This document shows, piece after piece, positions 17,115-30,121 of a stretch of DNA of 64,000 bases. This stretch comes from a virus (taxonomy: Duplodnaviria > Heunggongvirae > Uroviricota > Caudoviricetes): the IMG/VR virus record IMGVR_UViG_3300028898_000252, positions 285,946 to 349,945 of that record. One strand, written 5' to 3'. Both the position numbers and the translations under genes were made by a program. The notes below the pieces were generated by a model. The model saw nothing but the letters and a program-made list of their open reading frames with translations, ran no database searches and had not been told where the DNA came from. Position 1 is the first letter of the stretch, and each line of letters begins with the position of its first letter.

Positions 17115-17253
17115 TGGGAGAACGTGGATTAGCACGGTATATGCCAGGAATTACTTCAAAAACCCCCTAAAACCGCCCCCTAGGGGCCTCGTTTTTAACC
17201 CCTTGTTTAAGCCAGGGCCCATTTGCGGGTTGAAACCCCAGGCCCTGTATCCA

Positions 17254-17778
17254 TTATGTGGTTTCGATTTTCTTAAAGTCGTCTCCGAATCGAATGCGCT
17301 CACTTGTAACGCATTCGTCTGAATACTTCGAGAGAATCTTTTCGACGGCATCAATTCGGAGGTTGATTGCCTCGAATGTTTCTGTGTAGCGGTGAACGCG
17401 GATTCTGCGAGCCGTACAGGAATAGTTGTTAATCCCTGAATACTTCAATTCGTTTCTGTAACCAGTCACCGCTACTGGTTTACCAATGGGAGTAAGATGC
17501 TCGACATTTTGCTCGCCGTAACGTTCCCAGAACAAGTTTCGCCAGGAATAGCCTGTGCCGTTATCTCCGCTTCCGTAGAGCAAGTCGACTGCCGACATAA
17601 TGAGGTTGCCGATATCGCTGCTCATATCGTTGCAGTTTTTTGGAATTCGTTTTTCTCTATTCGAGATAGGATAGTCAGCTTCGAACAATGCGTTGTGTTT
17701 CATTGCAATTATATCGAGTGCCAACTCGACGATGGTAGAATCGTCCTCGGGAGTAACCTCCGTGAGTTTGTTTTCCAT
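17254..17778 (-). CDS. Hypothetical protein (island cassette)
   Basis: 174 aa, GGGAG RBS, follows element 17824. Confidence 0.75.
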   Translation of the reverse strand: MENKLTEVTPEDDSTIVELALDIIAMKHNALFEADYPISNREKRIPKNCNDMSSDIGNLIMSAVDLLYGSGDNGTGYSWRNLFWERYGEQNVEHLTPIGKPVAVTGYRNELKYSGINNYSCTARRIRVHRYTETFEAINLRIDAVEKILSKYSDECVTSERIRFGDDFKKIETT

Positions 17779-17865
17779 TTGAAATTGTTTCTCCCTTCTG
17801 TCTATCTCTTAGCACAATCCACGAAGGTTTATTTACCTTGCGAGAAGTATGCCAAGGGAAAGATA

Positions 17866-17900
17866 GAAAAGAAAACGACCCTGAGTGTATCAGGGTGGTT
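17866..17900 (-). terminator. Intrinsic terminator
   Basis: ACCCTGA-TACAC-TCAGGGT then CGTTTTCTTTT. Confidence 0.6.
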
Positions 17901-17928
17901 CTCTCGAAACGATCAAAGCGAGTTTGAT

Positions 17929-18168
17929 TCAGGGTGCCCGCTCGAAAACGGTTTCATCGTTGCGTCGAATTCGGAACTCTGCTGCGCTCAGGTGAGCGAA
18001 AGAACCACCGCGCCCGAATTCGGGGTGGGTTCCGTTGACGAGTTGTTTTGCGTAGCGAGCATCCTGCGCGTCGCGAATGGTTGCAAAATCCAACCATTTG
18101 CCATCGCGCTTGATTTGCGCAACGTCATATTCCTTGAAGGTGTATTCCGCGGGCTGTGTTTTGTGCAT
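17929..18168 (-). CDS. Hypothetical protein (island cassette)
   Basis: 79 aa, GAGG RBS, follows element 18214. Confidence 0.7.
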   Translation of the reverse strand: MHKTQPAEYTFKEYDVAQIKRDGKWLDFATIRDAQDARYAKQLVNGTHPEFGRGGSFAHLSAAEFRIRRNDETVFERAP

Positions 18169-18249
18169 AGTTTGAATTCCTCTCTCTGTGAATATGGTTT
18201 ACCACAATTCTTGGAGGTTTATTTACCTTTCAAGAAGTATGCCAGTCGA

Positions 18250-18684
18250 TCAGTCTTCGCTGATATCCTCCTCTGCCATATCTTTCAGATATGATTCGAA
18301 CGAGGGAGCATTCCAATCACATCCGTATTCGTAGTCGCCTCCGCCCTCGTAATCTTCTCGGTTTTCTCGCCTTTTGATGCGATCGAGACATTCGTTGAGC
18401 GTATACTTGCGAAACGACCTGTTTTTTTCTTCGGAGTAGTTCCGCTCTTCGATTTCCAGCGAACGAAAATCGAGTTCAGACTCTTCGGTTTTGAGCCACA
18501 TTTCTTGCTCGTCTTCGAGGGTTTCGTCGATTCCCTCGGCGATTGCTTGCTTCTCGGTAACACCTTGCGGGTTGCTGAATCGCAAAGTCTTTTCTCTGCG
18601 GCTGTTACCGAGAATGCGGTTAAGGGTAAACCTATCGTCAATATCGAGACGAGCAACAAAACCGCGGCGATGGTTGGTTTTCAT
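18250..18684 (-). CDS. Hypothetical protein starting MKTNHRRGF
   Basis: ATG 18684 with GGAAGG RBS, follows element 18728. Confidence 0.7.
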   Translation of the reverse strand: MKTNHRRGFVARLDIDDRFTLNRILGNSRREKTLRFSNPQGVTEKQAIAEGIDETLEDEQEMWLKTEESELDFRSLEIEERNYSEEKNRSFRKYTLNECLDRIKRRENREDYEGGGDYEYGCDWNAPSFESYLKDMAEEDISED

Positions 18685-18769
18685 TCTGTTGATCCTTCCG
18701 TGGTTATCTCTTACCACGTTTGGCTCTGAATTATTTACCTTGCAGGGACCGTGCCATCGCGGATTCTGA

Positions 18770-18816
18770 AAATAAAAAATGGGCTACTCGGGTGCTGGTT
18801 AGGCACTCGGTAGCCC
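18770..18816 (-). terminator. Intrinsic terminator
   Basis: GGGCTAC-CGAGTGC..GCACCCGA-GTAGCCC then ATTTTTTATTTT. Confidence 0.75.
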
Positions 18817-19003
18817 GTGAGCGGAAACGGAATCTCCGTTTATTTGTGGATTGAAGGGAGCACGTCGCGCGCTCAACCTCGGTTGAAGGGTAGGAAACAA
18901 CAGCAAGAGCGACGAATAGGGTTGCGATTGTTTAGCTCCTCTCTGTGTTTAGGTTTAGCACACCCTTGAAGGAATTATTTTCCTTTCAAGAGATATGCCA
19001 GTG

Positions 19004-19129
19004 TTAGCGGTTGCCGTTTTTGAGGTTGAGGGTTTCGGTTGCCTTTGCGATCATTCCACCAGCGACGAGCGCGGCGAACATCATCACGAAGGCGAAAGCT
19101 GCCCCGTTGGCGAACGTGTTAGCGATCAT
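19004..19129 (-). CDS. 41-aa single-TM peptide (not in ORF track)
   Basis: MIANTFANGAAFAFVMMFAALVAGGMIAKATETLNLKNGNR; AAGGA upstream. Confidence 0.55.
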   Translation of the reverse strand: MIANTFANGAAFAFVMMFAALVAGGMIAKATETLNLKNGNR

Positions 19130-19259
19130 GGGTTTGTGTGGTTTCCTTTCGCTGGCGACGAATCACCGCTGCAACCTCAACGATGCTGTAGGTTGTGCGC
19201 GCGATGGCGAGAATCAACAGAACGATCATAGAGAAATGGTTGTCGATGGAGGGTTCCAT
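19119..19259 (-). CDS. 46-aa hydrophobic peptide (not in ORF track)
   Basis: MEPSIDNHFSMIVLLILAIARTTYSIVEVAAVIRRQRK...; GAGG RBS after element 19300. Confidence 0.6.
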   Translation of the reverse strand: MEPSIDNHFSMIVLLILAIARTTYSIVEVAAVIRRQRKETTQTHDR

Positions 19260-19338
19260 TTGTTTTCCTCTCTGTGAGTATGTCTTAACATACCATTGAA
19301 GGATTTATTTACCTTTCAAGAGGTGTGCCAAGGTTTCG

Positions 19339-19569
19339 TCACTGGTCGGAAGGAAACCAACCCTTCACAACGGCGTTGTGGGCAATTCCAAGACGAAACA
19401 CCTGGGATCGTACTCGAATGCCGCTCGAAGCATTGAACACCTTGATTGAGGCATTCAGGGCGTTTGGGGCGGCATTCAGAGCAGCGGCGAACGCCTCGTG
19501 TTCGGTTGCTCCGAAACCGCTAGCGCTCAGTCCCGTTTGATTACGGGTCCATCGAAATTTACCTTGCAT
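19339..19569 (-). CDS. Hypothetical protein
   Basis: 76 aa; TAATG coupling with upstream ORF. Confidence 0.6.
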   Translation of the reverse strand: MQGKFRWTRNQTGLSASGFGATEHEAFAAALNAAPNALNASIKVFNASSGIRVRSQVFRLGIAHNAVVKGWFPSDQ

Positions 19570-19781
19570 TAGTTCATCACCCTTTCAGGTGCGGTTGAGG
19601 GATCGTGACCGAGGTTGAAAGCGGAGCGAAACAACTGTGCTTGCTCGCGCGTATCCGTGAAATGATCGAACACGGCCCCAGTCACGTCGGAGCGAAAACG
19701 GACCCTCCACATTTCACGCGGCGGGCGTTGGTTGCGAAGAAAAAACGCCTTCAACTTTTCGAGAAGTAACTTGTCGAGCAT
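19569..19781 (-). CDS. Hypothetical protein
   Basis: 70 aa; GGAGG RBS; follows element 19846. Confidence 0.7.
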   Translation of the reverse strand: MLDKLLLEKLKAFFLRNQRPPREMWRVRFRSDVTGAVFDHFTDTREQAQLFRSAFNLGHDPSTAPERVMN

Positions 19782-19928
19782 GACAACCTCCGTTCTGTTT
19801 GACCGTTTCGAATTCCCTTGTGAGTATGTCTTATCACACTCAGTTAAGGTTTATTTACCTTTCACAAACCATGCCAAGCACAGTTTATGAAAACTTTGTT
19901 TTCAAGACCTATGCCAGACTTTTGCCGC

Positions 19929-20312
19929 TCATGCAAACTTGCATGCCGACAAGGTTTTCATCACGGAATACATCCTGTCGATGACCGCGGGGACCTTTTT
20001 GTCGTTGTCGTGGTAAAACATGTTTGCGGCGAGAATAACATTTCTAATCGCCTTGCGCTTGTTCATTCCGACCGCGATATGCACCGCACCGCCACGAATT
20101 GCGATTGAACACCTCCAGCCGTGATCGCGTACGGCATCGAAAACAACATTGACAGGATTGACGCGATTGTTATTCAGCAGGTCGACCAATTTTTCGACCT
20201 TCGCGCCCCCGCTGTAAACCTCGATAACGGCGGCTTCGAGCAAGGTATTGAACCTTTGCTCTCTTGCTTCGATGGCTCGAAAGAATGCCTTGAATGATTC
20301 GAATTGTTCCAT
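19929..20312 (-). CDS. Hypothetical protein
   Basis: Start reassigned to MEQFESF with AAAGGG RBS. Confidence 0.65.
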   Translation of the reverse strand: MEQFESFKAFFRAIEAREQRFNTLLEAAVIEVYSGGAKVEKLVDLLNNNRVNPVNVVFDAVRDHGWRCSIAIRGGAVHIAVGMNKRKAIRNVILAANMFYHDNDKKVPAVIDRMYSVMKTLSACKFA

Positions 20313-20494
20313 TGTGAAACCCTTTCGTTGGAGAATGACAGCCGCAGAAATAGGATTTGCACCTACAGTTTCCTCTGTTTTGCAGAGGTTTTGGCCACGA
20401 TTCGGCACGGGACCTATTCCCGTTCTGCGGTATAGACTTGTTAACACAACCTCGAAGGTTTTATTTACCTTTCAAGAGGTGTGCCAACGAAGGT

Positions 20495-20707
20495 TTAGTC
20501 GTGATACCAAACATCCTCGCCGTGAATGTTTTTCGACGGAAAAACAACCGTATCCGTGTCCTCGTTGTGCTTCGTGACAGCGAACATCACCTTTCGCTGA
20601 GCGTTGCGCAGCACCTTGCGAGCAAAGCGCTTGAAACCATTGTGAAAGTGGCGATGGTGGGAGTCCTCGCTGCGAGCGGTGAATCCTCGACGGTGGTTCG
20701 TTTTCAA
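20495..20707 (-). CDS. Basic peptide starting MKTNHRRGF
   Basis: 70 aa, TTG start, GGGAG RBS, follows element 20750. Confidence 0.65.
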   Translation of the reverse strand: MKTNHRRGFTARSEDSHHRHFHNGFKRFARKVLRNAQRKVMFAVTKHNEDTDTVVFPSKNIHGEDVWYHD

Positions 20708-20844
20708 TTCCGTTCTCCCTTCTGTCTAGGTCTTAACACACTCTATCGTGAATTATTTTCCTTTCACGAATCGTGCCAAGGTTGACCAAGAGGCTGTCTC
20801 GGTGGGTTGAGGCATTCAGAATTAATTTCAAAATCTGTGCCGCG

Positions 20845-20874
20845 AAAATAAAAAAGCCCCGATTCGCTCGGGGC
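20845..20874 (-). terminator. Intrinsic terminator
   Basis: GCCCCGA-GCGAA-TCGGGGC then TTTTTTATTTT. Confidence 0.8.
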
Positions 20875-20912
20875 GTGGCGGGTTTGGTTATGTATCCAAA
20901 CCAATTGGTTTC

Positions 20913-21287
20913 TCAATCCTCGTTTTCCGACGAGAACGCGATCGAACGAATTCCGATCTCATGGTAGTTTTTCCATGAGAATGTCAGCCGCTTCGAATCG
21001 TCATCGCAGCCTTTCAAAACGACGTGCGTGCAATCCCCCGATTGCGTGACGACCGAAGCGACCTCCCACAATTGCGAGCCGTGCGCTCGCTTTCCCTTCA
21101 CTTCGAGAATGTCACCAACCTTGACGCGCGAAAGGATGATCCACACGGGATCGCGTCGCGTTCGGTCCGAAACTTGAAATTTTCGTTCGGTCAAGTCATC
21201 GTAGAGGCGGCGAGCCTTCGTGTTTTCATTCGCCCACGCGCGAAACGAACCGATGATTGCCGAGAGGATATCCTTGTTGTTGCTCAT
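20913..21287 (-). CDS. Hypothetical protein (possible SH3-like C-terminus)
   Basis: 124 aa; VKVGDILEV. Confidence 0.65.
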   Translation of the reverse strand: MSNNKDILSAIIGSFRAWANENTKARRLYDDLTERKFQVSDRTRRDPVWIILSRVKVGDILEVKGKRAHGSQLWEVASVVTQSGDCTHVVLKGCDDDSKRLTFSWKNYHEIGIRSIAFSSENED

Positions 21288-21335
21288 GTTTCTTTTCTCT
21301 TTTCTTTTCGTTGAAGTTGATTGAAGGGTTGGTTT

Positions 21336-21710
21336 TCAGAGAGAGAGGGCGAAAGCGATATCGAGAGCAACAGGGGTTTTGTTTTCCTCCGTTACTCCGT
21401 TGTACTTGATCGCGTGTTCCGCGAGGTTGTAGTGGTCAATCAATTCGACCTCGCAAGGTAGGGGAGTGTTGCAGGCGAGCCGCGTAATCGGAGGCATTTT
21501 TTTGTCTCCGAAAAGTTTTACCAACAAAAACTCTGTTCCGTATTGACCAGTGGAGGCGGAACTTGCGGTCAATTGGTAGACCGCAGAAACCTCTTTGCGG
21601 CCTTTCCGAAATGACAGCAAGAAAAACCTTGCAACCTTGACAAACACCGTAATCGAACAACCGAGTGTTTCGGTGTTGATTCGATCACCAACCTTGAAAA
21701 GATGGTTCAT
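21336..21710 (-). CDS. Hypothetical protein
   Basis: Start reassigned to MNHLFKVGD with AAGGGA RBS. Confidence 0.65.
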   Translation of the reverse strand: MNHLFKVGDRINTETLGCSITVFVKVARFFLLSFRKGRKEVSAVYQLTASSASTGQYGTEFLLVKLFGDKKMPPITRLACNTPLPCEVELIDHYNLAEHAIKYNGVTEENKTPVALDIAFALSL

Positions 21711-21866
21711 TCGTTTTTTCCCTTGTTGCTTGACGAAAACCTTGTCGGCGACTGGCTTATCGACAATAATTTTCTTGGGGTTGCGAGACAGGGTGATTCC
21801 TGGCCAGTTTCTATCTCTTATCACAGCTTTCAGCATTGAATTTTCCTTTCAAGCGCTATGCCAAGA

Positions 21867-22049
21867 TTACCTTTTCCGTTGTTTGATTTTCGAACCAGAG
21901 GGCACCACGAGAAACCATTCGAACCTGTTGACAATTGCATTCCAAACCTTGTATCTCCGAATCACTCTCGTGTAGAGAGCACCTTGACGCAGGGTTTCGA
22001 GGTATGAGTCGAACGGACCCAGGTGGTTTTCTGAATAACAGTCGCCCAT
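21867..22049 (-). CDS. Hypothetical protein
   Basis: 60 aa; AAGGTGA RBS; follows element 22101. Confidence 0.65.
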   Translation of the reverse strand: MGDCYSENHLGPFDSYLETLRQGALYTRVIRRYKVWNAIVNRFEWFLVVPSGSKIKQRKR

Positions 22050-22136
22050 TCGTTCACCTTCCCTTGCTGGCGTGTCTACCTCATATCACGATTGATTCTG
22101 TTTTATTTTCCTTGCAGGGATCATGCCAGCAGTGGA

Positions 22137-22355
22137 CTACTTCGAAACCTCAACTCCAATAATCAAAACCATCGGAGGCTCGCCTACAGAAGTCTCGAAA
22201 CCAGAAACTTTCGTCTGGAAAACTTCATCCTTCTCTGGATTATCCATGAGAGCTTCATTCAGTCGGAGGATCAACCTTTGCGCTTCATCACGCGAAAGGC
22301 CGATAACCAAACGATTTTTGAAAATCTCGTCTGCGGTTTTTTCCCAGTGCGCCAT
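22137..22355 (-). CDS. Hypothetical protein
   Basis: MAHWEK start, AAGGA RBS; follows element 22399. Confidence 0.65.
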   Translation of the reverse strand: MAHWEKTADEIFKNRLVIGLSRDEAQRLILRLNEALMDNPEKDEVFQTKVSGFETSVGEPPMVLIIGVEVSK

Positions 22356-22490
22356 GATCTTTTCCTTTCCGTGGTTATGATCTAACACATTCAGCTCTGA
22401 ATTATTTACCTTGCAGGGATCATGCCAACCACGGGAGATTGAGAATTATTTTCAAATTGCTGCGGCACAAAAAATGCAGGGCCAAAAACG

Positions 22491-22530
22491 ATAAAAGGGC
22501 AACCCGCTTGTTAAAGCGAAGTTGCCCCTT
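22491..22530 (-). terminator. Hairpin/terminator after the tRNA-ncRNA operon
   Basis: GGGCAAC-TTCGCTT..AAGCGG-GTTGCCC then TTTTAT. Confidence 0.65.
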
Positions 22531-22569
22531 TGGGTTTATTTACTTTGCAAACCGTGTGCCAACGTTTAG

Positions 22570-22644
22570 CGTCTCTGATAGGACTTGAACCTATGACCTA
22601 CCGCTTAGAAGGCGGTCGCTACTATCCAACTGAGCTACAGAGAC
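22570..22644 (-). tRNA. tRNA-Arg(UCU)
   Basis: GTCTCTG/CAGAGAC acceptor, TAGCTCAGTTGGATAG D arm, ACCGC-CTTCTAA-GCGGT, GGTTCAAGTCC; CCA not encoded. Confidence 0.92.
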
Positions 22645-22649
22645 AAAGC

Positions 22650-22732
22650 GTCTCGTAACGTTACTGTGCGCCGCTTACACTACGGTTTTGAGGCCGCGGA
22701 GAGTCGAACTCCGTCTGCAACGTTTCCGAGAC
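22650..22732 (-). ncRNA. Circularly permuted tRNA-like RNA (YrlA/Y-RNA-like)
   Basis: Order stem - T arm (CGGAG-TTCGACT-CTCCG) - closed acceptor hairpin - TA - D arm (GTGT-AAGCGGC-GCAC) - stem. Confidence 0.7.
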
Positions 22733-22919
22733 TGAAACAGTCTACAGGAGCACTGTTTCGATGTGCAGTCGATACGCAATCCGTCTCGTAACGTCATCGC
22801 GACGTTGGATTGTCCACTATTGGCAATCAACCTTTCGAGGTTGACTCTCGCTCTCGCCGCGAGAAGGCTAGTGGTGCTGAGAGCATATAATACCGACATA
22901 TCCCCTCGGTTAACGGGTT

Positions 22920-22988
22920 GACTGAGCGGTTTAACTGTTTAACCTAACAGGTTACCCTGTGCAGGATTCGCACCCGCATATCTCAGTC
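22920..22988 (-). ncRNA. Circularly permuted tRNA-like RNA (YrlA/Y-RNA-like)
   Basis: GACTGAG-ATAT-GCGGG TGCGAAT CCTGC-ACAGG GTAA CCTGT-TA-GGTT AAACAGTTA AACC-G-CTCAGTC. Confidence 0.72.
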
Positions 22989-23197
22989 GGTGTGATGGTG
23001 GTTTGTATTGTTTCACTAGCATTCAGTAACCATCGGTACCGAATGCCAGCGGCCACGATTTATTTAACCCAACACCGAGCATTGTGGCTTGTTTGGTATT
23101 GGACCACGGAATTATTCTCCGTGGATTTGCTTTCCTTAAATGGTGGAAAGCACGACAGCGTTTACGACTCCATACTATATGTCGCCTCTAGCATGAA

Positions 23198-23262
23198 TGG
23201 TGCTCTCATATGGACTCGAACCAATGCCTAGCAGCGCGGTTAAGCGCTCTAGGTATGAGAAC
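23198..23262 (-). ncRNA. D-armless tRNA-like RNA with encoded ACCA
   Basis: GTTCTCAT/ATGAGAGC-ACCA, CCTAG-AGCGC-TTAACC-GCGCT-G-CTAGG, TGG-TTCGAGT-CCA. Confidence 0.7.
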
Positions 23263-23387
23263 ATGTTTTATGTTAAGGAATCTATCGTTTTGACGTTGTT
23301 GCCCCGATCGCCTCGCTCTCTCTGTCTACATTCTAGCGCGACCGAGCAAGGTTTATTTACCTTTCAAGTATCGTGCCAGGGAAAAGG

Positions 23388-23516
23388 GTACCGCCGCGGG
23401 AATCGAACCCGCTTTAGACGTTCTAGCCAACGTCTAAATCTCCAAGGTAGAACCCCATAGTTTTATCGGTGCTTGACTAGAGCGCCCGCTATGTTGTCTA
23501 ACTTTAGGTAGCGGTA
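23388..23516 (-). ncRNA. 129-nt tRNA-like RNA (acceptor + T arm + two long hairpins)
   Basis: TACCGCT/GGCGGTA, GCGGG-TTCGATT-CCCGC, TTTAGACGTT/AACGTCTAAA. Confidence 0.65.
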
Positions 23517-23519
23517 TAG

Positions 23520-23602
23520 TGCCAGCAACGGGACTTGAACCCGTATGCCCTTGCGGACGGCGGATTTTGAATCCGCTGCGTATTCCATTCCGCCACGCTG
23601 GC
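23520..23602 (-). tRNA. tRNA-Leu(CAA)
   Basis: GCCAGCG/TGCTGGC-A, GCGGA-TTCAAAA-TCCGC, long variable arm GTCC-GCAA-GGGC, GGTTCAAGTCC. Confidence 0.93.
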
Positions 23603-23949
23603 ATTTGTTCTGCAATCTCGTTTGCAGAGGACGATACCGAGACACATTCTAATATGCGGCTCGATATTAACACGCTGGGATGACACAATGATCATCCGTG
23701 TGGTACAGCTTAGTTTGATATGTGTACCTAGTTCACAGCCCGCGGTTTTCATTGGCTGCAAAACAAGTTGTGCCAGTCACTTAGCCCGTGTTTGCAGGAT
23801 ACGCGCACGCCGACTAGCTTACGCTCGCGTTTCCGACGTATGGGATATATTACCGTTCACTCGCTTTCCTTTTCGTTGCTGCCCGCCCCATGAATCTCTC
23901 TTACCACACCCGAGCAAGGTTTATTTCCCTTGCAAGCGCTATGCCAGGG

Positions 23950-24189
23950 TCAGAGCGCGACCACCGCGAGGGTTTCGCGACCGTTTTCCCACGGGCAGAG
24001 CCACGCTTTCGCGTAGCCGTTGGGTGCTTGCACGATCACGGGATTACGGGGCGACGCCCGTTTCGCGCGGCAAGCGCGGACGATTTTGTCCACCCCAGAA
24101 TCGATAGAATAGTGAGTCACGAATGTAGCTGCCGTTTCGTTGAACTCGAACACCACTGCTTTCGAATCGTTCACTTTTGCATCCTCCAT
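23950..24189 (-). CDS. Hypothetical protein
   Basis: 79 aa between elements 24221 and 23916. Confidence 0.6.
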   Translation of the reverse strand: MEDAKVNDSKAVVFEFNETAATFVTHYSIDSGVDKIVRACRAKRASPRNPVIVQAPNGYAKAWLCPWENGRETLAVVAL

Positions 24190-24254
24190 CCCCCATAATC
24201 TTATGTTAGTACAACCGAGCAGGGTTTATTTACCTTGCACAAGCCATGCCAGAG

Positions 24255-24617
24255 TTAGACCTTGGCGGAATCCTCCGCTCGACGAATAACCCACCATTCG
24301 GTTCCCGCGCCGTCGCGGTCGATTTCACCCACAAGGATGAATTCATTGCTGAGCATATCCATAAACACGCCCTCCCATGCCCCGCGGGTTGTTCGAACGG
24401 ACACACCGAGGATTCTGGAAAACTCAGCCGCAGCCGCAGATTTTCTGACTACGGACGAAAGATTTGTCTTCCGAACGTCGATCTTTCCGCCGCCGCTCAA
24501 TTCGAGCTCGAAACCCTCTTGGGTTTGCTCGATCGCAGTCACGGGAATGAATTCGAGATTCAACCGTTGACGAGCGACGATATTCAAATCGAGACCATCC
24601 GACACAATGCAGTCCAT
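24255..24617 (-). CDS. Hypothetical protein
   Basis: 120 aa, AAGGG RBS, follows element 24669. Confidence 0.7.
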   Translation of the reverse strand: MDCIVSDGLDLNIVARQRLNLEFIPVTAIEQTQEGFELELSGGGKIDVRKTNLSSVVRKSAAAAEFSRILGVSVRTTRGAWEGVFMDMLSNEFILVGEIDRDGAGTEWWVIRRAEDSAKV

Positions 24618-24710
24618 TGTTTGAAACCCTTTCTTCGTTGGTGTGTTCTCTGTATAGCAGACCCTAGCAAGGTTTATTTACCTTGCAATCGGTATGCCAA
24701 GGATGATTAG

Positions 24711-24781
24711 TAGGTCCAGAAGGAATCGAACCTTCGTTAACTGGTTAAAAGCCAGCTACTCTACCATTGAGTTATGGACCC
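24711..24781 (-). tRNA. tRNA-Lys(UUU)
   Basis: GGGTCCA/TGGACCT-A, GCTGG-CTTTTAA-CCAGT, GAAGG-TTCGATT-CCTTC. Confidence 0.93.
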
Positions 24782-25130
24782 TTAGAGCGCCGCTGTTTAC
24801 CAACGATTCCCCGTATGCGGGGCAACCTCGGGACAGCGGGCGGTTTTGCACCATTCTTTTATTCGTTTTAGGCCGAATCACACCCGTTAGGTAGCTATCG
24901 GCCTATCGTTTACGACGATACATCAGCGTTTCCTCTTCGCTATATTATTAGAACCTACGCATGCGCGCGGTAGGCTTATGGGTTCGAGGTAGTGAATGCG
25001 GAATGACCCGCGCCCGTATCGTGTTGGCAGCGTGCGGTTTCGCTCGGTATCCGCTGCTAGTTTTACCGATCGACTAGCAACCGCTCAGTGGAGCGGCTGA
25101 CAAGGTGTGTGTAGCACGACTCGGCAGGGT

Positions 25131-25469
25131 TTATTTACCTTGCACCGTCTGTGCCAGCGGGACGCCGCCCGACCACGGGGCATCGTCGATCATTTCGAAA
25201 ATGGTTTGAATTTCCTCGACTGAAAGAGTGGTGTCGTGATACCACTCCGTCAACCTTCGGTCGAAAGCGTCGGCAAGGTCGCGGGTTTCAGCGAATTCGA
25301 ATTCGACCTCTTCGAACATCGAATTGTAAAACCTCGGAGGTTGCTCGCCATTTGCCGCGCGGTGTTCGATGATCGCCTGCTCGCATTCTCCCACGAATTC
25401 GGCGAGTTGTTCTCGCGAATAACCGCGGAGTTTCAGCGTTTGCAATTCTGAGAGATTCTTCGTCGACAT
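25131..25469 (-). CDS. Hypothetical acidic protein; stop codon supplied by the next element
   Basis: MSTKNL start; ends LAQTVQGK-TAA, the translation of element 25126-25156. Confidence 0.65.
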   Translation of the reverse strand: MSTKNLSELQTLKLRGYSREQLAEFVGECEQAIIEHRAANGEQPPRFYNSMFEEVEFEFAETRDLADAFDRRLTEWYHDTTLSVEEIQTIFEMIDDAPWSGGVPLAQTVQGK

Positions 25470-25546
25470 TTTCTTTCGTTGCTCCTCTCTGTGGGTATGT
25501 CTTACCACACCCTTGAAGGAATTATTTACCTTGCAAGCGGTGTGCC

Positions 25547-25579
25547 AAAAAAAATAGGCTTGGAATAGATCCGAAGCCT
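25547..25579 (-). terminator. Intrinsic terminator
   Basis: AGGCTT..AAGCCT then ATTTTTTTT. Confidence 0.65.
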
Positions 25580-25769
25580 CTCACCATTCGTTATATCGCC
25601 TTCAACCGCAAGTTAACTTAATAACTCGCTGAATGGCCGCACTCCCAGGCATCGCGCTATGGACTAGCCTTATGGTTGCGCTTTGTTATGGCCGCTTGCA
25701 CGGTTTGGTTGAAGCAATGCCGTTATCCAACGGCGGTATTGGCTTGACAGAGAATCCTGTTCTCTGTCA
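25580..25769 (-). ncRNA. Candidate structured ncRNA downstream of tRNA-Ile
   Basis: No minus-strand ORF; long-range pairing TTGCTTCAACC/GGTTGAAGGCGA plus two hairpins. Confidence 0.45.
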
Positions 25770-25846
25770 TGGTAGGCGTAAATGGACTCGAACCATTGAC
25801 CCCACGGTTATAAGCCGTGTGCTCTAACCGACTGAGCTATACGCCC
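25770..25846 (-). tRNA. tRNA-Ile(UAU)
   Basis: GGGCGTA/TACGCCT-ACCA, CACGG-CTTATAA-CCGTG, AATGG-TTCGAGT-CCATT. Confidence 0.9.
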
Positions 25847-26037
25847 AACGAATGCGGCCTCGCCTTATTCAGCGCCCGCGGTGAATGCTAACCAGCTTGT
25901 CACGGCCAGTGCATTATTTTACCTGCTTTCCGTATCGTTGCGGGTTGAGGTTTTGAGGCAACCTTGCTCGTTGCCCCGTGAGTATGTCTTAGCACGACTC
26001 GGCAGGGTTTATTTGCCTTGCACCGTTCGTGCCAGGG

Positions 26038-26346
26038 TTACGCCAGCTTCGACCACGCCAGCGCGAACAAACGCACGGCGAAAGCCAGGGCGAAAACCGC
26101 AGCGCTCACCCTTGCAATCCCCAGCGCGTTTTTTGACGTTCCGTAACCGTACTCGGACGCAAGAAAACTGTTTGTCAGCCTCTCAGCGATCATGGAAACC
26201 ACGAAAAGCGATCCAAACAACAACAGGTGTTGTCCTGCGGAGAGCGAGAGAAACATCCCGAAAAACGTTCCGATCGCGCCCGAAGCGATGGCGAGCACAA
26301 GCAACACAGCCGCCGCGACTGCGGCGAAAACCTTACCAAAGGTCAA
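26038..26346 (-). CDS. Small multi-pass membrane protein
   Basis: About 3 hydrophobic segments; TTG start just after the upstream stop (start uncertain). Confidence 0.6.
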   Translation of the reverse strand: MTFGKVFAAVAAAVLLVLAIASGAIGTFFGMFLSLSAGQHLLLFGSLFVVSMIAERLTNSFLASEYGYGTSKNALGIARVSAAVFALAFAVRLFALAWSKLA

Positions 26347-26348
26347 GG

Positions 26349-26729
26349 TTACGACCTTCGCGAGTGTGACGCGCGCTGGAGAATCGGAAGACCAAGAACA
26401 CCACTCGGTCCAACCTTTGCAAACGCATCGGTTTGCTCGTTGCCGCGTTCGCCAGGGACGAAAAGCGTCACCTCGGCATAGCGGTTGCTGTGCCCCGCGC
26501 AGCACTTGGTTTCACTCGAAACCGTTGCGCGCCAGTCAGAAGCGGAAAAAAACTTTTCCGTTTCCTTTCCCGCAGCGTCGTGTCGGATCACTTCGACCGC
26601 GTAGCGCTCCAATTGGAGCCGTTCGCGGAGTTCATCGGCGTGCATTTCCGCCGCTGTGCGTGTGTCGAGCTCCATTCCTTCATCGAAGGAAACATCGCCA
26701 CTGTCTGAACCATTCACTTCGATCGTCAT
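26349..26729 (-). CDS. Hypothetical protein
   Basis: 126 aa, GGAGGT RBS, follows element 26797. Confidence 0.7.
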   Translation of the reverse strand: MTIEVNGSDSGDVSFDEGMELDTRTAAEMHADELRERLQLERYAVEVIRHDAAGKETEKFFSASDWRATVSSETKCCAGHSNRYAEVTLFVPGERGNEQTDAFAKVGPSGVLGLPILQRASHSRRS

Positions 26730-26831
26730 TGCCTACCTCCATGTAGGGTTGCTAGAGGTTATCTCCAGCAACAACTTTTGAATAACACAACCCTCGAAGG
26801 TTTATTTACCTTGCAGGGATCATGCCATTCT

Positions 26832-26892
26832 TGGAGGGCTTGGGAGAATCAAACTCCCCGCAAAGTTTTTGCTTTGCGAACCATTAAGCCCT
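26832..26892 (-). ncRNA. Minimal tRNA-like RNA (acceptor + T arm + one hairpin, TCCA end)
   Basis: GGGCTT/AAGCCC-TCCA, GGGAG-TTTGATT-CTCCC, GCAAAG-CAAAAA-CTTTGC. Confidence 0.55.
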
Positions 26893-26897
26893 TGCGG

Positions 26898-27380
26898 TCA
26901 CTCCGCTAGTGCCGCCTGAATCTCGGAAAGTTTCTTCTCGAAGGTGAAACGAGTTTCGAAACGCTCGCACACTTCGCGCAATTCCTCGAAACCACTCGCG
27001 ATTTGTTCGAGCGAATCGGGGTCAACCTCGTTGGGCGCGGTGCGGTCGACCAGCTTCGCATACTCGGTCAACTCGATTCCGAATTGAGCGCCGCGCCAAT
27101 CTCCGTTAGCGTCGCGGTAGTTGAGCACACGCTTTTCGAGCGCGTACATGATCGCGCCGTCCACATCACCCGCCTTTTGCGCGGTGCGCAGCTCGACCAG
27201 CTTCCGATACGACGCGCGCAGGTTTTCCACACCCGCGACGATCATATCAAACTTCTCGTCGACATTCGCGTTTCGAAACGCCGCCAAGTTTTCGAGCGGC
27301 TTGTGCTTGCACGCGTCGAACGAGCGCGTGGCTTCGAGAAGAGCCGCCTTATCTGCAACAACAACAACGTTCGTTCCCAT
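26898..27380 (-). CDS. Hypothetical helical protein
   Basis: MGTNVV start; GC3-rich codons; follows element 27467. Confidence 0.7.
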   Translation of the reverse strand: MGTNVVVVADKAALLEATRSFDACKHKPLENLAAFRNANVDEKFDMIVAGVENLRASYRKLVELRTAQKAGDVDGAIMYALEKRVLNYRDANGDWRGAQFGIELTEYAKLVDRTAPNEVDPDSLEQIASGFEELREVCERFETRFTFEKKLSEIQAALAE

Positions 27381-27612
27381 TTTTTTCTTTTGCTCCAATG
27401 TTTGAAAAACCGTTCACTTGCTGTGTGAGCACCGTTGCTCACACTCTCTACTTAGCACAACTCGACAAGGTTTATTTACCTTGCAGGGTTCATGCCAAGC
27501 GTGGCACTTCCGCCGAGGGTTGCACTCGGCATAGCTATTGCTTGTTAGCTTTAGCTATCGTGTCCTGGTGACACCGAAAGTGTTTTGTTCTGCCCCTTTC
27601 GGGGCGAGGGTT

Positions 27613-28236
27613 TCAACCCTCGGCGGTTTCGTCGTCGGTCGCAGCGTCGAGCGCTTCGAGCGCGGGCGAATTGCTCAGGTCGGTTGCAGCCGCGCCAGCA
27701 AACCGCGACGGAGGCGCGGAAAGCGCGACGACACGCGCCGTGCGCGCAGGCTTCGCGGGCTTGGGAGCCTCGGGAGCCTTGGGTTTGATTCCGAGCATCG
27801 CAGCGACCGAGGTTTGCGGCGCGTTGGGATTGATTCGCGCGATTCCCGCGCACTCCATTGCAGCGCGGAAGGTTTCGATCAGTGACAGCGCCTCGATCGC
27901 GCAACCCGCGCTATCGCGCGAGTGGAGCACGAAAACGTTGTCGCGACCGATGACCTCACTGCCGTACACGACCTCGCCGCGAACGATGCGAAGCAACAGC
28001 GTCGAGCCCGCCGTGTCCGAGTTTGGCCCGCCGCGCGCGGCGCGCACGCCTTCGAGCAGCGCGAGCGCCGAGCCGCCTTCGTCATCGGTCAAGCGGAACA
28101 TCACGGGCTCTTGTGGCTCGATCCACAGATCAGACTTCGACGCGTCGCCGCCCTCGCCGCACTGCTCGCGAACGTGCGCAACGAGCGCCGCGAGAACCAT
28201 TCCAGCGACAACCGAACGAACAGAATTCTTGCTCAT
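27613..28236 (-). CDS. Hypothetical protein with A/P-rich disordered C-terminus
   Basis: MSKNSV start; follows element 28332. Confidence 0.7.
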   Translation of the reverse strand: MSKNSVRSVVAGMVLAALVAHVREQCGEGGDASKSDLWIEPQEPVMFRLTDDEGGSALALLEGVRAARGGPNSDTAGSTLLLRIVRGEVVYGSEVIGRDNVFVLHSRDSAGCAIEALSLIETFRAAMECAGIARINPNAPQTSVAAMLGIKPKAPEAPKPAKPARTARVVALSAPPSRFAGAAATDLSNSPALEALDAATDDETAEG

Positions 28237-28331
28237 GTTTTTTTCTCTCTTTTCTTTCGTTTTGTGAACTCGCGAGCACCGCAACCGTGCGGTGCATCAT
28301 CTCTTGTGAATCTCTCTTAGCACGACTCGGC

Positions 28332-28362
28332 AAGGTTTATTTACCTTGCACCGTCTGTGCCA
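28332..28362 (-). promoter_or_regulatory. Representative sigma54-type -24/-12 promoter
   Basis: TGGCACAGACGGTGCAAGGTAAATAAACCTT; GG-N10-GC; upstream of the ORF starting at 28236. Confidence 0.75.
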
Positions 28363-28532
28363 ACCTAACAACCATCGAAACTCACGTTCGCAGGTTAGGT
28401 GGGATGGTACGAATGTTGTTTGTTCGTGCCGTCCCGTCTACTCTGCAACCGATACCCTGTCATGTGCTCTGTCTAGCACACTCTCGGAAGGTTTATTTAC
28501 CTTTCAAGTATCGTGCCAGGACAGTTTCAGGC

Positions 28533-29054
28533 TCAGTCGTCATCGGCAGCATCGAAAAACTTGCCGATCGCGAGGAATTCACCGCGAGTGCAAGCGGCGT
28601 GCCACTCAGGATTCGAGCCCGTCCCGTTTGGAATCGGGCTGAAATTCAATTTCTGTACCATCGTGCGGCGTGCTTTGAATTCGGCGAATCCTGGGAATTC
28701 AACCGAAGCAAGCACCGCGCCGTTGTTTTTCGACCAGTCGTAAAAGTACCGTTGTTTTCCGACGGCACCGTCGTCGGCCAGTGGGGCAACAACGAGACAG
28801 CTTGTTCCTCGCGCCCCGCGTGAGGAATGATTCCCCAGCAAAATGAATCGCCGCTTGTTGATTCGCACAGTTGAATACTTTGGCGCTGCTTTTGCAGCAA
28901 GCACCGTATCCCGCTGAAACTCGCTGAATTCATCGTAGTCAGGCGAATCCCGCTTGATTCGCCCCTGGCGAGCACCTTCGCCTGCGGTACAGTCAAGGTC
29001 GAGCCTTTCAGGCTCGACAACATTGTCATTGTCATTGTCGTTTTCGTTTGCCAC
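28533..29054 (-). CDS. Hypothetical protein
   Basis: GTG start with GAGGAG RBS; NDNDND microrepeat; follows element 29098. Confidence 0.7.
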   Translation of the reverse strand: MANENDNDNDNVVEPERLDLDCTAGEGARQGRIKRDSPDYDEFSEFQRDTVLAAKAAPKYSTVRINKRRFILLGNHSSRGARGTSCLVVAPLADDGAVGKQRYFYDWSKNNGAVLASVEFPGFAEFKARRTMVQKLNFSPIPNGTGSNPEWHAACTRGEFLAIGKFFDAADDD

Positions 29055-29296
29055 TCGCTGTGCTCCTCTCTGTGAATCTCTCTTAGCACGACCGACCAAG
29101 GTTTATTTACCTTGCAGGGTTTGTGCCAACAACCTTGGTCGTTGGAGTTTCGAGCGAAACGCGGCGATCGTCCGTCCCGCCCTGTGTTCTCTGTCTAGCA
29201 CAACCCAAGGTGCTTTATTTACCTTGCAAGCATCATACCAGGGTTGGGCGTTTGGCGCGGTGCGAGCCTCTATCGACCGCGCGTACACGCGTGCGT

Positions 29297-29370
29297 AGCA
29301 TAAACCATGCCAGGTAAGACTACCTAAAAAAACCGTTGGCATGATACTTGCAAGTGGCATGGTTTATGCC
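29297..29370. promoter_or_regulatory. Divergent cluster of three GG-N10-GC boxes at the right island edge
   Basis: Minus 29297-29312; plus 29337-29352 and 29355-29370; perfect 15-bp inverted repeat 29298-29312/29355-29369. Confidence 0.75.
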
Positions 29371-29485
29371 TTCGCGGGGCAACCCTCAACCGTTACCATA
29401 TATGGCAGTATGAAACACCTAAACATTTAGTGAAATGAAATTTAATGAAACTAGGTATGAATTTTATTTGTACTAAGGTTTAGAG

Positions 29486-29959
29486 TTAAACTTTGTATTT
29501 TATAAAAAGAGTTTCGAGTTTTGTTTTAAGTTCTGGATAATGATAAAGGAAACTTTTATTCTTTTTTGGATCAAGGAGTCTTTCGTAAATTTGTTTGTAT
29601 GAGTTTCTCTCAAGCCACGAGAGATAAGCTGAAATAAACTTATCATCTTCGAGATAGTCAAACAAAGTGACTTCAACCATTTCAAAAAATGTTTCTTTGT
29701 CGAGTTTAATTGTTTTGGAGCATATTAGAGCATAATATGCACAAAGTTTTTTGATAAGAAACTCATCATTTTCAAAATCAAGAACTTGTGGTTTTTGGGC
29801 TTTGGGAGAGGAAGTATTCCAGTTTTGGGAAACAATTATTGTCGATTGTGATTCATGTGCGGTAATTGTGTTATAAGAAGGGTCAAACAAAATGGCACGG
29901 TAATCACAACCTGTAAATGTTTTAACAAAGGTTTTGAGTTCTTTGTTTTCAAGTTTCAT
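29486..29959 (-). CDS. Hypothetical protein
   Basis: MKLENK start with AAGGAGG RBS. Confidence 0.75.
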   Translation of the reverse strand: MKLENKELKTFVKTFTGCDYRAILFDPSYNTITAHESQSTIIVSQNWNTSSPKAQKPQVLDFENDEFLIKKLCAYYALICSKTIKLDKETFFEMVEVTLFDYLEDDKFISAYLSWLERNSYKQIYERLLDPKKNKSFLYHYPELKTKLETLFIKYKV

Positions 29960-30121
29960 TGTTTTGTTGCCTCCTTTTTTTGATTGTTTTGTTTCAACCC
30001 AAACTCTTATTGTTTTGGGTTGATTTATCTTAGCCGCAAACCTTATAAAAGGTTTGGGATTTAAGCTTTGAATTAATATGATAAACATTTAGTATTTTGA
30101 CCCTCCCCTCCCCTTAAAAGA

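What the first reader, a model, noticed from the sequence alone, without database searches (positions are those of the whole stretch)
22920..22988. Circularly permuted tRNA mimic with a GNRA-closed acceptor stem (YrlA-like)
Seen (minus): GACTGAG / ATAT / GCGGG-TGCGAAT-CCTGC / ACAGG-GTAA-CCTGT / TA / GGTT-AAACAGTTA-AACC / G / CTCAGTC. All four helices pair, the TA and single-G linkers match tRNA positions 8-9 and 26, but the order is T arm, closed acceptor, D arm, with the ends where the anticodon loop would be. Established: bacterial YrlA Y RNAs have this permuted tRNA-like module and usually lie near a Ro60/Rsr gene. Inference: a non-chargeable, anticodon-less tRNA decoy. No Ro60 gene is in the window.
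Basis: partly seen in the sequence, partly recalled or inferred. Interest (0 to 1): 0.88.

Follow-up and report, generated by a model that had tools for sequence, protein, structure and literature searches.

The report
Sealed, anticodon-less tRNA look-alike in phage
A giant phage carries a conserved 69-base RNA shaped like a tRNA with its acceptor end sealed and no anticodon, built like the bacterial YrlA "Y RNAs" but with no Ro60 partner gene in the phage, so it is probably a tRNA decoy or scaffold whose partner is unknown.

Summary
Window 22920-22988 (minus strand) folds exactly as described: T arm, GNRA-capped acceptor hairpin, UA, D arm, G, 7-bp closing stem (z = -3.6). It keeps most tRNA tertiary nucleotides. 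ARAGORN calls it a tRNA once it is un-permuted in silico. A strict descriptor found no match in 40 Mb of random sequence.

It lies in a non-coding unit that runs from a promoter-like motif to tRNA-Arg. The unit sits in a 12-kb GC-rich RNA-gene island of a complete 391-kb phage.

Only three haplotypes were found in metagenomes. The 69 nt are identical except the N of GNRA (GUAA, GAAA, GCAA), while the surroundings are 80-88% identical. One compensatory pair extends the basal stem to 10 bp.

YrlA membership is not supported. The Rfam score is 25 bits against a threshold of 69. There is no GNCGAA Ro-binding motif, the D stem differs, and the elbow deviates (G55, one D-loop G). No TROVE, DUF2828 or vWA protein was detected in the phage.

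The best reading is a Ro60-independent tRNA-mimic domain of a phage ncRNA. This scan has noted similar permuted tRNA mimics in other phages and bacteria, next to Ro60-like or DUF7873 genes; neither is present here. One low-coverage relative lacks the element.

The parts
22920..22988 (-). Core permuted cloverleaf. Closing stem 5' strand 22988-22982; AUAU 22981-22978; T arm 22977-22961; closed acceptor hairpin 22960-22947 (GNRA loop 22955-22952); UA 22946-22945; D arm 22944-22928; G 22927; closing stem 3' strand 22926-22920.
   Evidence: MFE equals centroid fold, z = -3.6. Rfam YrlA 25.1 bits. 68-69 of 69 nt identical in all relatives, and the only variable base is the N of GNRA. ARAGORN calls the un-permuted version a tRNA.
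22989..22991 (-). 5' strand (ACC) of a 3-bp extension of the basal stem. It pairs with GGU at 22894-22892.
   Evidence: RNAalifold pair col 77-176 is A-U in the window and G-C in L014 and L047, a change on both sides. In L014 the stem is a continuous 10 bp, followed by a 4x4 internal loop and 4 more bp.
22892..22919 (-). 3' side of the basal stem. 22919-22895 is a 25-nt segment present only in the window haplotype, flanked by a GTC direct repeat and bulged out. 22894-22892 is the GGU that pairs with ACC.
   Evidence: The 25-nt indel lies just outside the closing stem in L014 and L047. It removes the ATG of ORF 22675-22899, so that ORF is not conserved.
23353..23378 (-). Sigma54-type (-24/-12-like) promoter motif that heads the transcription unit.
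   Evidence: One of 25 co-oriented copies of TGGCAY-N5-YTGCAAGGTAAATAA, against 0.02 expected. No minus-strand terminator lies between it and tRNA-Arg.
23198..23262 (-). D-armless mini tRNA-like RNA: 7-bp acceptor stem, one long hairpin, T arm, ending in ACCA. It is the first RNA of the unit.
   Evidence: Read from the sequence. The hairpin keeps pairing through a G-C to C-G change in L014 and C-G to U-G in L047.
23014..23197 (-). Conserved, structured, non-coding leader block with several hairpins. UCGUGGC at 23058-23052 may pair with GUUACGA at 22792-22786 and so enclose the domain that holds the element.
   Evidence: 0-3 differences among haplotypes. The hairpin CUUUCC/GGAAAG becomes UUUUCC/GGAAAA in L026, a change on both sides. 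Substitutions in the overlapping plus-strand 62-aa ORF are mostly non-synonymous with no third-position bias. The enclosing helix is predicted but invariant.
22793..22884 (-). Four hairpins between the two permuted modules.
   Evidence: The hairpin at 22846-22825 keeps pairing through two changes on both sides in L047. Its loop changes from CGAA to UUCG.
22650..22732 (-). Second permuted tRNA-like module, unrelated in sequence. It has a long terminal stem, a T arm with canonical UUCGA, a 3-bp capped acceptor-like hairpin, UA, and a D arm with GG.
   Evidence: Folds this way. Terminal-stem pairs change U-A to C-G and G-C to U-A in L047. It is deleted in L049-L051 by recombination between 13-nt direct repeats.
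22569..22644 (-). tRNA-Arg(UCU), the last gene of the unit. It starts 5 nt after module 2.
   Evidence: ARAGORN. Rfam tRNA 62.6 bits.

Best explanation
The element is a genuine, selected tRNA-shaped domain of a phage non-coding RNA. It is a four-way junction that keeps the tRNA core (T arm, D arm, U8-A9 linker, Levitt pair, G26). Its acceptor stem is sealed by a GNRA tetraloop, and its 'anticodon stem' continues into a basal helix that ties it to the rest of the transcript.

It is transcribed from a sigma54-like promoter motif as part of a roughly 780-nt non-coding unit. The order is: mini tRNA-like RNA, structured leader, this module, hairpins, a second permuted tRNA-like module, tRNA-Arg. 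RNase P and 3' processing of the flanking tRNA-type structures probably release the unit (inferred).

The module has no 3' end to charge and no anticodon to decode. The most likely mode of action is therefore tRNA-body mimicry. It would present a tRNA core and elbow to a tRNA-binding protein, acting as a decoy or tether in the way the YrlA effector module is thought to, and/or give the surrounding RNA a nuclease-resistant fold.

The partner is not a phage-encoded Ro60.

Shown here: the structure is plausible, the element is tRNA-like, the region is non-coding, and the element is conserved.

Inferred: transcription, processing, and decoy or tether action.
For: - Fold as proposed, z = -3.6.
- tRNA geometry: ARAGORN accepts the un-permuted version.
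- Chance is negligible.
- Single copy in the genome.
- The best non-tRNA Rfam match is YrlA, aligned arm for arm.
- Conservation: there are three haplotypes (window type; L014; L047/L048). The unit is 88% identical and neighbouring genes are 80-84% identical. Yet the 69 nt differ only at the N of GNRA: GUAA, GAAA, GCAA.
- The immediate flanks differ at 8 of 43 upstream columns. Downstream there is a 25-nt indel placed exactly outside the closing stem.
- One compensatory A-U to G-C pair extends the basal stem to 10 bp.
- Non-coding: the ORF start is lost in relatives, a 2-nt indel shifts the frame, and substitutions are non-synonymous.
- The neighbouring RNA structures show 6 further compensatory pairs, so the whole unit is structured RNA.
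Against: - There is no covariation inside the four core helices. All copies are identical there, so the core fold rests on thermodynamics, likeness to tRNA and the pattern of conservation.
- Conservation is patchy. An adjacent 180-nt block is just as conserved, so recent cassette exchange could explain part of it.
- One relative (L026, a 1.5x-coverage contig) lacks window 22700-23050, including the whole element. It is therefore dispensable in at least one variant, or that contig is defective.
- The elbow is non-canonical (G55 and A18 in place of U55 and G18), so D-loop/T-loop docking is unproven.
- There are no expression, processing or binding data, and no candidate partner protein.
- Only one phage lineage carries it.
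Confidence: 0.55

Rival explanations
1. It is a true YrlA-type Y RNA that works with a Ro60/Rsr protein supplied by the unknown host, or with a phage Ro60 too divergent to detect. It would tether Ro60 to an effector such as PNPase.
For: - Same permuted topology, and the T stem GCGGG/CCUGC is close to the YrlA consensus.
- Phage Y RNAs exist (PMC4201824; PMC12135203).
- The basal stem with internal loops in L014 and L047 looks like a Y RNA stem.
- In Salmonella, yrlA is transcribed from a sigma54 promoter (PMC4987338). Here the unit follows a sigma54-like motif.
Against: - 25 bits against a gathering score of 69.
- No GNCGAAN0-1G or conserved CGAA motif in the stem. The only conserved CGAA is the T loop.
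- The D stem and the elbow nucleotides differ from the near-invariant YrlA ones.
- No TROVE, DUF2828 or vWA protein in the complete phage genome.
- Known phage Y RNAs lie next to a phage Ro60 gene.
Confidence: 0.12
2. It is an evolutionary relic. A junction between two tandem tRNA copies (3' half followed by 5' half) was trimmed to a hairpin. It persists as inert structured spacer in a tRNA operon with no function of its own.
For: - It lies in a tRNA-rich array whose cassettes shuffle and delete through short repeats.
- L026 lacks it.
- The elbow is degenerate (G55, single D-loop G).
- Tandem duplication is the accepted route to permuted tRNA genes (from memory: Soma et al. 2007).
Against: - 68-69 of 69 nt are kept while the flanks, and even neighbouring hairpins, change.
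- The two independent substitutions both fall on the one free position of a GNRA loop.
- The indel boundary respects the closing stem, and the stem extension covaries.
- The neat 5-bp plus tetraloop closure looks selected.
Confidence: 0.15
3. It is mainly a processing and stability element. It would be a compact tRNA-like knot that stops exonucleases or guides RNase P, Z or E cuts, so that the flanking RNAs and tRNA-Arg mature correctly.
For: - The unit has no internal terminator, and tRNA-type structures sit at both ends.
- Chen et al. proposed nuclease protection as one role of the tRNA-like fold (PMC4201824).
- tRNA-like elements are known to punctuate transcripts, for example mascRNA (PMC8457004).
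Against: - A 5-bp acceptor stem closed by a tetraloop is a poor RNase P substrate. Only the 7-bp M. smegmatis YrlA is cut (PMC4201824).
- Sequence-level invariance of loops and stems is more than a simple roadblock needs.
- tRNA-Arg is kept in variants without the module (L026).
Confidence: 0.15
4. Together with the second module, it belongs to the 'double tRNA-mimic RNA' that this scan has found after DUF7873 genes in many bacteria and phages. In this phage the protein partner would be missing or supplied in trans.
For: Two permuted tRNA-like modules lie within about 340 nt, inside a phage tRNA cluster and without Ro60. That matches the description in earlier AI notes.
Against: - No DUF7873 match among 125 ORFs of 190-320 aa.
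- No hexamer-repeat track was seen.
- No sequence of that family was available to compare, and a look-up of the element's sequence in the scan's earlier findings found only this genome.
- The two modules delete independently in relatives.
- The family itself is unpublished and unverified.
Confidence: 0.1

Closest known systems
YrlA (Y RNA-like A; Rfam RF02553), the bacterial and mycobacteriophage Y RNA bound by Ro60/Rsr (PMC4201824; structure in bioRxiv 10.1101/312249, PDB 6CU1)
   Same: Circularly permuted tRNA-like module in the order variable loop, T arm, closed acceptor stem, UA, D arm. The ends leave through the 'anticodon' stem into a long basal helix. The Levitt pair, the pyrimidine at the end of the variable loop and the UA linker are kept. 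The T stem is close to GCGGG/CCCGC. It often lies near tRNA genes.
   Different: Sub-threshold score (25 against 69 bits). No GNCGAA Ro-binding motif. Different D stem. T loop UGCGAAU and a single D-loop G. A native GNRA cap. No Ro60 gene in the phage. It is embedded in a longer multi-domain transcript rather than being a roughly 110-nt stand-alone RNA.
Phage Ro60 / Y-like RNA systems (Thermus phage phiLo Yrl1 and Yrl2, PMC12135203; also CcrColossus, Bacillus phage G and mycobacteriophages, as cited there)
   Same: Phage-encoded small structured RNAs related to Y RNAs.
   Different: Those RNAs lie beside a phage Ro60 gene. They are defined by a stem-bulge-stem with a CGAA motif. Neither feature is present here.
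Permuted tRNA genes of Cyanidioschyzon merolae and other algae or archaea (from memory: Soma et al. 2007, Science)
   Same: The 3' half of the tRNA is encoded upstream of the 5' half, with the acceptor strands joined by an intervening loop.
   Different: Those genes keep a full anticodon loop and a 7-bp acceptor stem. They mature through a circular intermediate into working tRNAs. This element has no anticodon loop, a 5-bp acceptor stem and a 4-nt cap.
'Double tRNA-mimic RNA' next to DUF7873, and Felix O1-type Ro60-like protein with permuted tRNA-mimic RNAs
   Same: Acceptor-closed permuted tRNA mimics inside phage tRNA clusters. Two modules sit in one RNA of roughly 350-450 nt.
   Different: No DUF7873 and no Ro60-like, DUF2828 or vWA gene was detected in this phage. 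Homology at the RNA level could not be tested.
tRNA-like processing elements and stable RNAs in tRNA operons (mascRNA/MALAT1, PMC8457004; phage T4 species 1 and 2 stable RNAs, from memory)
   Same: Non-decoding tRNA-like structures co-transcribed with other RNAs.
   Different: Those have open acceptor ends that RNase P and RNase Z cut. This one is sealed.

Membership tests
YrlA (RF02553) | Covariance-model score at or above the Rfam gathering threshold (69 bits) | tested here: not met
   25.1 bits. E = 0.01 in 1.3 kb and 0.096 in 12.6 kb. Model positions 13-98 of 114, with the inner helix skipped. No match at gathering threshold.
YrlA (RF02553) | Permuted tRNA-like module: T arm, closed acceptor stem, UA, D arm, with the ends in the anticodon-stem position | tested here: met
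   The MFE fold and the Rfam alignment agree arm for arm. ARAGORN accepts the un-permuted version.
YrlA (RF02553) | Conserved tertiary nucleotides: T loop UUCGA, two D-loop guanines, Levitt pair, pyrimidine at the end of the variable loop, UA linker (10.1101/312249) | tested here: inconclusive
   The UA linker, A15-U48, U at the end of the variable loop, U54-A58 and C56 are present. The T loop is UGCGA and the D loop has one G (AG, not GG) (read).
YrlA (RF02553) | Near-invariant YrlA T-stem and D-stem sequences | tested here: not met
   The T stem GCGGG/CCUGC matches. The D stem GGUU/AACC differs from the consensus GCUC/GAGC (alignment).
YrlA (RF02553) | GNCGAAN0-1G (Ro-binding) motif in the 5' strand of the basal stem (PMC4201824) | tested here: not met
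   No such motif lies in the roughly 100 nt upstream in any haplotype. The only conserved CGAA is inside the T loop.
YrlA (RF02553) | Encoded next to a Ro60/Rsr (TROVE) gene | tested here: not met
   No match in the complete 390,884-bp phage genome for PF05731, PF11443, PF13519 or PF00092. The host genome is unknown.
YrlA (RF02553) | Bound by Ro60; modified by TruB and DusA | not testable with these tools
   Needs biochemistry.
tRNA (RF00005) | Open 7-bp acceptor stem and an anticodon arm with a 7-nt loop | tested here: not met
   Neither ARAGORN nor Rfam calls a tRNA here. The acceptor stem is 5 bp and capped, and there is no anticodon loop.
Permuted tRNA gene (C. merolae type) | Complete tRNA sequence in permuted order, including the anticodon loop, able to mature into a tRNA | tested here: not met
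   The closing stem runs on into a 10-bp basal helix with no anticodon loop.
tmRNA (including permuted tmRNA) | tRNA-Ala-like domain plus a tag reading frame, detectable by ARAGORN or Rfam | tested here: not met
   ARAGORN with -m finds no tmRNA in the genome. Rfam tmRNA hits score only 10.9-13.6 bits and lie elsewhere in the unit.
DUF7873-linked double tRNA-mimic RNA (scan-internal, unpublished) | Two permuted tRNA-like modules in one RNA of roughly 350-450 nt | tested here: met
   Modules at 22988-22920 and 22732-22650, both supported by folding. Module 2 is also supported by covariation.
DUF7873-linked double tRNA-mimic RNA (scan-internal, unpublished) | Adjacent DUF7873 protein of about 245 aa | tested here: not met
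   No DUF7873 among the Pfam hits of 125 ORFs of 190-320 aa, or of the 39 ORFs of 225-273 aa at E <= 0.01. No such ORF lies next to the RNA.
DUF7873-linked double tRNA-mimic RNA (scan-internal, unpublished) | RNA sequence or structure homology to that family | not tested

The most novel reading that the evidence does not exclude
The island encodes a co-expressed battery of non-decoding tRNA mimics alongside four real tRNAs. The mimics are two permuted acceptor-sealed modules, at least one D-armless mini-tRNA, and a long tRNA-like RNA. They work without Ro60 as decoys or sponges for host tRNA-directed immunity or tRNA-binding enzymes. That would be a new phage counter-defence principle based on tRNA-body mimicry.
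Probability: 0.18. Interest if true: 0.8.

Novelty: new variant of a known kind. Interest (0 to 1): 0.55.

Why it matters
YrlA-type tRNA mimics are defined by their partnership with Ro60, and the binder of their tRNA-like module is still unknown. This is a clean, minimal version: a natural GNRA cap, no anticodon, and no Ro60 gene anywhere in a complete giant-phage genome. It sits in one transcript with a second mimic and a real tRNA. That suggests the tRNA-shaped module can work on its own. It also offers a compact test object, because a 69-nt RNA is suited to pull-downs aimed at finding what reads a tRNA body. If these mimics blunt tRNA-targeting defences or hijack tRNA enzymes, they would add an RNA-decoy layer to what is known of phage tRNA biology. 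The claim is limited: three near-identical haplotypes, no expression data and no partner.

Tried and rejected
- **IMG/VR scans.** Four scans found no relatives: an element pattern, two neighbouring proteins and the promoter motif.
- **GTDB genomes.** The promoter motif gave 13 single hits in unrelated bacteria, taken as chance or ordinary sigma54 sites and not followed up.
- **Metagenome scan.** The promoter motif gave 29 loci. Eight are true relatives of the island, and only L014 and L026 cover the element's unit.
- **Overlapping ORF as bait.** Searching with the spurious plus-strand ORF over the element found only the same phage.
- **Neighbouring proteins as bait.** These have only one or two divergent clusters among 5.8 billion proteins, so no more distant homologues could be reached.
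- **Model R1.** It found no second copy in the genome.
- **Partner and related proteins.** None were found in the phage: RtcB, CCA-adding enzyme, sigma54 DNA-binding domain, bEBP ATPase, TROVE, DUF2828, vWA, DUF7873. The Pfam accession of DUF7873 could not be found, so a six-frame search for it was not possible.
- **Other RNA classes.** Rfam gave nothing beyond noise for GOLLD, ROOL, tmRNA, ribozymes or riboswitches across the island. The weak HDV-like (17 bits) and mascRNA-like (16 bits) hits were treated as chance.
- **Coding readings of the region** were rejected.
- **Literature.** Searches found no description of Ro60-less permuted tRNA mimics in jumbo phages.

Full report
**Context**

The window is bases 285,946-349,945 of a 390,884-bp virus record with direct terminal repeats, rated 100% complete. 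The genome is about 32% GC. Window 17.2-29.25 kb is a sharp island of about 50% GC.

The island carries 25 co-oriented copies of a sigma54-type motif, TGGCAY-N5-YTGCAAGGTAAATAA, against 0.02 expected by chance. It also holds four tRNA genes about 1 kb apart: Ile-UAU, Lys-UUU, Leu-CAA and Arg-UCU. The other 17 tRNAs of the phage lie at 12-61 kb of the genome.

**The observation**

On the minus strand, 22988-22920 reads GACUGAG / AUAU / GCGGG-UGCGAAU-CCUGC / ACAGG-GUAA-CCUGU / UA / GGUU-AAACAGUUA-AACC / G / CUCAGUC. RNAfold gives exactly this four-way junction as both the minimum-energy and the centroid structure. The energy is -24.8 kcal/mol, z = -3.6, and none of 200 shuffles folds as well.

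On tRNA numbering the element keeps these positions:
- U8, A9, G10, A14, A21
- the A15-U48 Levitt pair
- G26/A44, G53-C61, U54-A58
- C56 opposite a D-loop G

It departs at position 55 (G, not U) and has one D-loop G rather than two.

I opened the tetraloop in silico, added two acceptor pairs and closed the basal stem with a 7-nt loop. ARAGORN then calls the result a tRNA, so the arm lengths and linkers are tRNA-compatible.

A strict descriptor, written after the fact, hits only this site in the genome. It hits nothing in 40 Mb of random sequence. A loose descriptor gave four other hits, all AT-rich and low-complexity. The element is single-copy in the genome.

**Is it coding?**

No.
- The minus-strand ORF 22675-22899 loses its ATG in relatives through a 25-nt indel.
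- The plus-strand 90-aa ORF is frameshifted by a 2-nt indel in L014 and L047.
- Its 62-aa core accumulates mostly non-synonymous changes with no third-position bias.
- No minus-strand terminator lies between the promoter-like motif at 23378-23353 and tRNA-Arg at 22644-22569.

The unit is therefore a non-coding stretch of about 780 nt. In order it contains:
- a D-armless mini tRNA-like RNA ending in ACCA (23262-23198)
- a conserved hairpin-rich leader
- this element
- four hairpins
- a second permuted tRNA-like module, unrelated in sequence (22732-22650)
- tRNA-Arg

**Relatives**

IMG/VR and GTDB gave no relatives of the island: IMG/VR gave no hits at all and GTDB only unrelated single hits. 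A metagenome scan with the promoter motif gave short contigs of related islands. Contig look-ups through a neighbouring 166-aa protein gave longer ones.

The distinct haplotypes that cover the unit are:

| Haplotype | Loci | Identity to the window | State of the unit |
|---|---|---|---|
| Window type | L033, L055-L057 | 100% | complete |
| L049-L051 | three sequencing runs | about 97-100% | module 2 deleted |
| L014 | one contig | 88% over the unit | complete |
| L047/L048 | two runs | 88% over the unit, 80-84% in neighbouring genes | complete |
| L026 | one 1.5x-coverage contig | 91-94% | element deleted, module 2 truncated |

The covariance model R1 finds the element full-length in every haplotype that has this segment. 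The single variable base is the N of the tetraloop: GUAA, GAAA (L014) and GCAA (L047/L048). All three are GNRA.

The flanks change much more. Eight of 43 upstream columns differ. Downstream, a 25-nt indel lies exactly outside the closing stem.

RNAalifold extends the basal stem by ACC/GGU in the window and GCC/GGC in L014 and L047. That is one compensatory pair. In L014 and L047 it gives a continuous 10-bp stem, followed by an internal loop and a further short helix.

Across the 420-nt region, 7 predicted pairs show changes on both sides. They include two pairs in the terminal stem of module 2 and two in the hairpin at 22846-22825.

**Limits of the comparative evidence**

- There is no variation, and so no covariation, inside the four core helices.
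- An adjacent 180-nt block is equally conserved.
- L026 lacks 22700-23050, which removes the element and half of module 2.
- L049-L051 lack module 2 through recombination between the 13-nt direct repeats ACGUUACGAGACG.

The modules are therefore individually dispensable in some natural variants, or those variants are defective.

**Comparison with YrlA**

The Rfam YrlA model is the best non-tRNA hit, at 25.1 bits against a gathering score of 69. The alignment runs through T arm, acceptor stem and D arm but skips the inner helix.

The defining features of YrlA are set out in PMC4201824 and bioRxiv 10.1101/312249:
- adjacency to Ro60/Rsr
- a GNCGAAN0-1G motif in the 5' strand
- conserved elbow nucleotides
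- near-invariant T and D stems

Here the topology, the UA linker, the Levitt pair and the T stem agree. The Ro motif, the D stem and two elbow positions do not.

The complete phage genome has no TROVE, DUF2828 or vWA match. It also has no RtcB, CCA-adding enzyme, sigma54 DNA-binding domain or bEBP.

The element therefore works like, and is built like, the YrlA effector module. It should not be filed as a YrlA or Y RNA.

**Leads from this scan**

Earlier AI notes describe two kinds of permuted tRNA mimic in other genomes:
- mimics beside Ro60-like proteins in Felix O1-type phages
- a double tRNA-mimic RNA of about 360-450 nt after DUF7873 genes

I tested the partner criterion for the second kind. 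There is no DUF7873 among 125 ORFs of 190-320 aa. RNA-level kinship could not be tested.

**Mechanism**

Most likely (confidence about 0.55), this is a selected tRNA-body mimic. It forms one domain of a phage ncRNA that is co-transcribed with tRNA-Arg.

It cannot be charged, because it has no 3' end. It cannot decode, because it has no anticodon. A 5-bp capped acceptor stem is a poor RNase P substrate (PMC4201824).

What remains is the tRNA core and elbow, which many tRNA-binding proteins read (10.1101/312249). Decoy or tether action, and/or nuclease-resistant scaffolding, is therefore the inferred function.

The rivals are:
- a Y RNA that uses host Ro60
- an inert relic of tandem tRNA duplication
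- a pure processing or stability element
- membership of the DUF7873-linked RNA family

**Verdict**

- Observation: confirmed.
- Interpretation: partly supported.
- Novelty: a new variant of a known kind, namely a Ro60-less, GNRA-capped, YrlA-like tRNA mimic in a giant-phage RNA island.
- Interest: moderate. The element is real and unusual, but it is known from only three near-identical haplotypes, has no expression or partner data, and resembles findings this scan has already made elsewhere.

Noticed in passing
window 17829-31435 (minus strand): 25 co-oriented copies of a sigma54-type -24/-12 motif, TGGCAY-N5-YTGCAAGGTAAATAA, against 0.02 expected. Each heads a small ORF or RNA cassette. The phage has no detectable sigma54 DNA-binding domain or bEBP ATPase.
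   Followed up: partly
window ~17200-29250: A sharp island of about 50% GC in a 32% GC jumbo-phage genome. Its cassettes are mosaic among relatives. L014 lacks 22129-22395. L047 has tRNA-Ile and tRNA-Lys only 117 nt apart, without the ORF cassettes.
   Followed up: partly
window 22650-22732 (minus strand): A second permuted, acceptor-closed tRNA-like module, unrelated in sequence, with canonical UUCGA and a D-loop GG. Its terminal stem covaries in L047. Its 3' strand repeats a 13-nt sequence at 22794-22782, which could form an alternative helix and which mediated a 133-nt deletion in L049-L051.
   Followed up: partly
window 23198-23262 (minus strand): A D-armless mini tRNA-like RNA: 7-bp acceptor stem, one long hairpin with a 6-nt loop, T arm, ending in ACCA. 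The hairpin has a G-C to C-G compensatory change in L014.
   Followed up: partly
window ~23395-23517 (minus strand): Directly after tRNA-Leu lies a tRNA-like RNA of about 120 nt. It has the acceptor pairing UACCGCU/GGCGGUA, a canonical T arm (GCGGG-UUCGAUU-CCCGC) and a long insert with an anticodon-like hairpin. It is also present in L047. Rfam gives only a 13.6-bit beta_tmRNA hit on the T arm.
   Followed up: no
window 22470-22561 (minus strand): A promoter-like motif at 22561-22536 is followed almost at once by a terminator-like hairpin (GGGCAAC...GUUGCCC plus a U run). This looks like a very short transcription unit or an empty cassette.
   Followed up: no
window 48622-49431 (minus strand): A 269-aa Thg1-like protein (PF04446, E = 1.4e-35), a putative 3'-5' polymerase that repairs tRNA 5' ends. 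This family is unusual in phages.
   Followed up: partly
genome G000:C1:61455-61527 (+), outside the window: ARAGORN reports a tRNA with a CUA anticodon, labelled tRNA-Pyl. It is a possible amber suppressor in this phage. Recoding was not examined.
   Followed up: no
L062 7766-7805 (minus strand) = genome ~37766-37805: A sub-threshold preQ1 riboswitch-like hit (26.3 bits against 39) at the edge of the main tRNA cluster.
   Followed up: no
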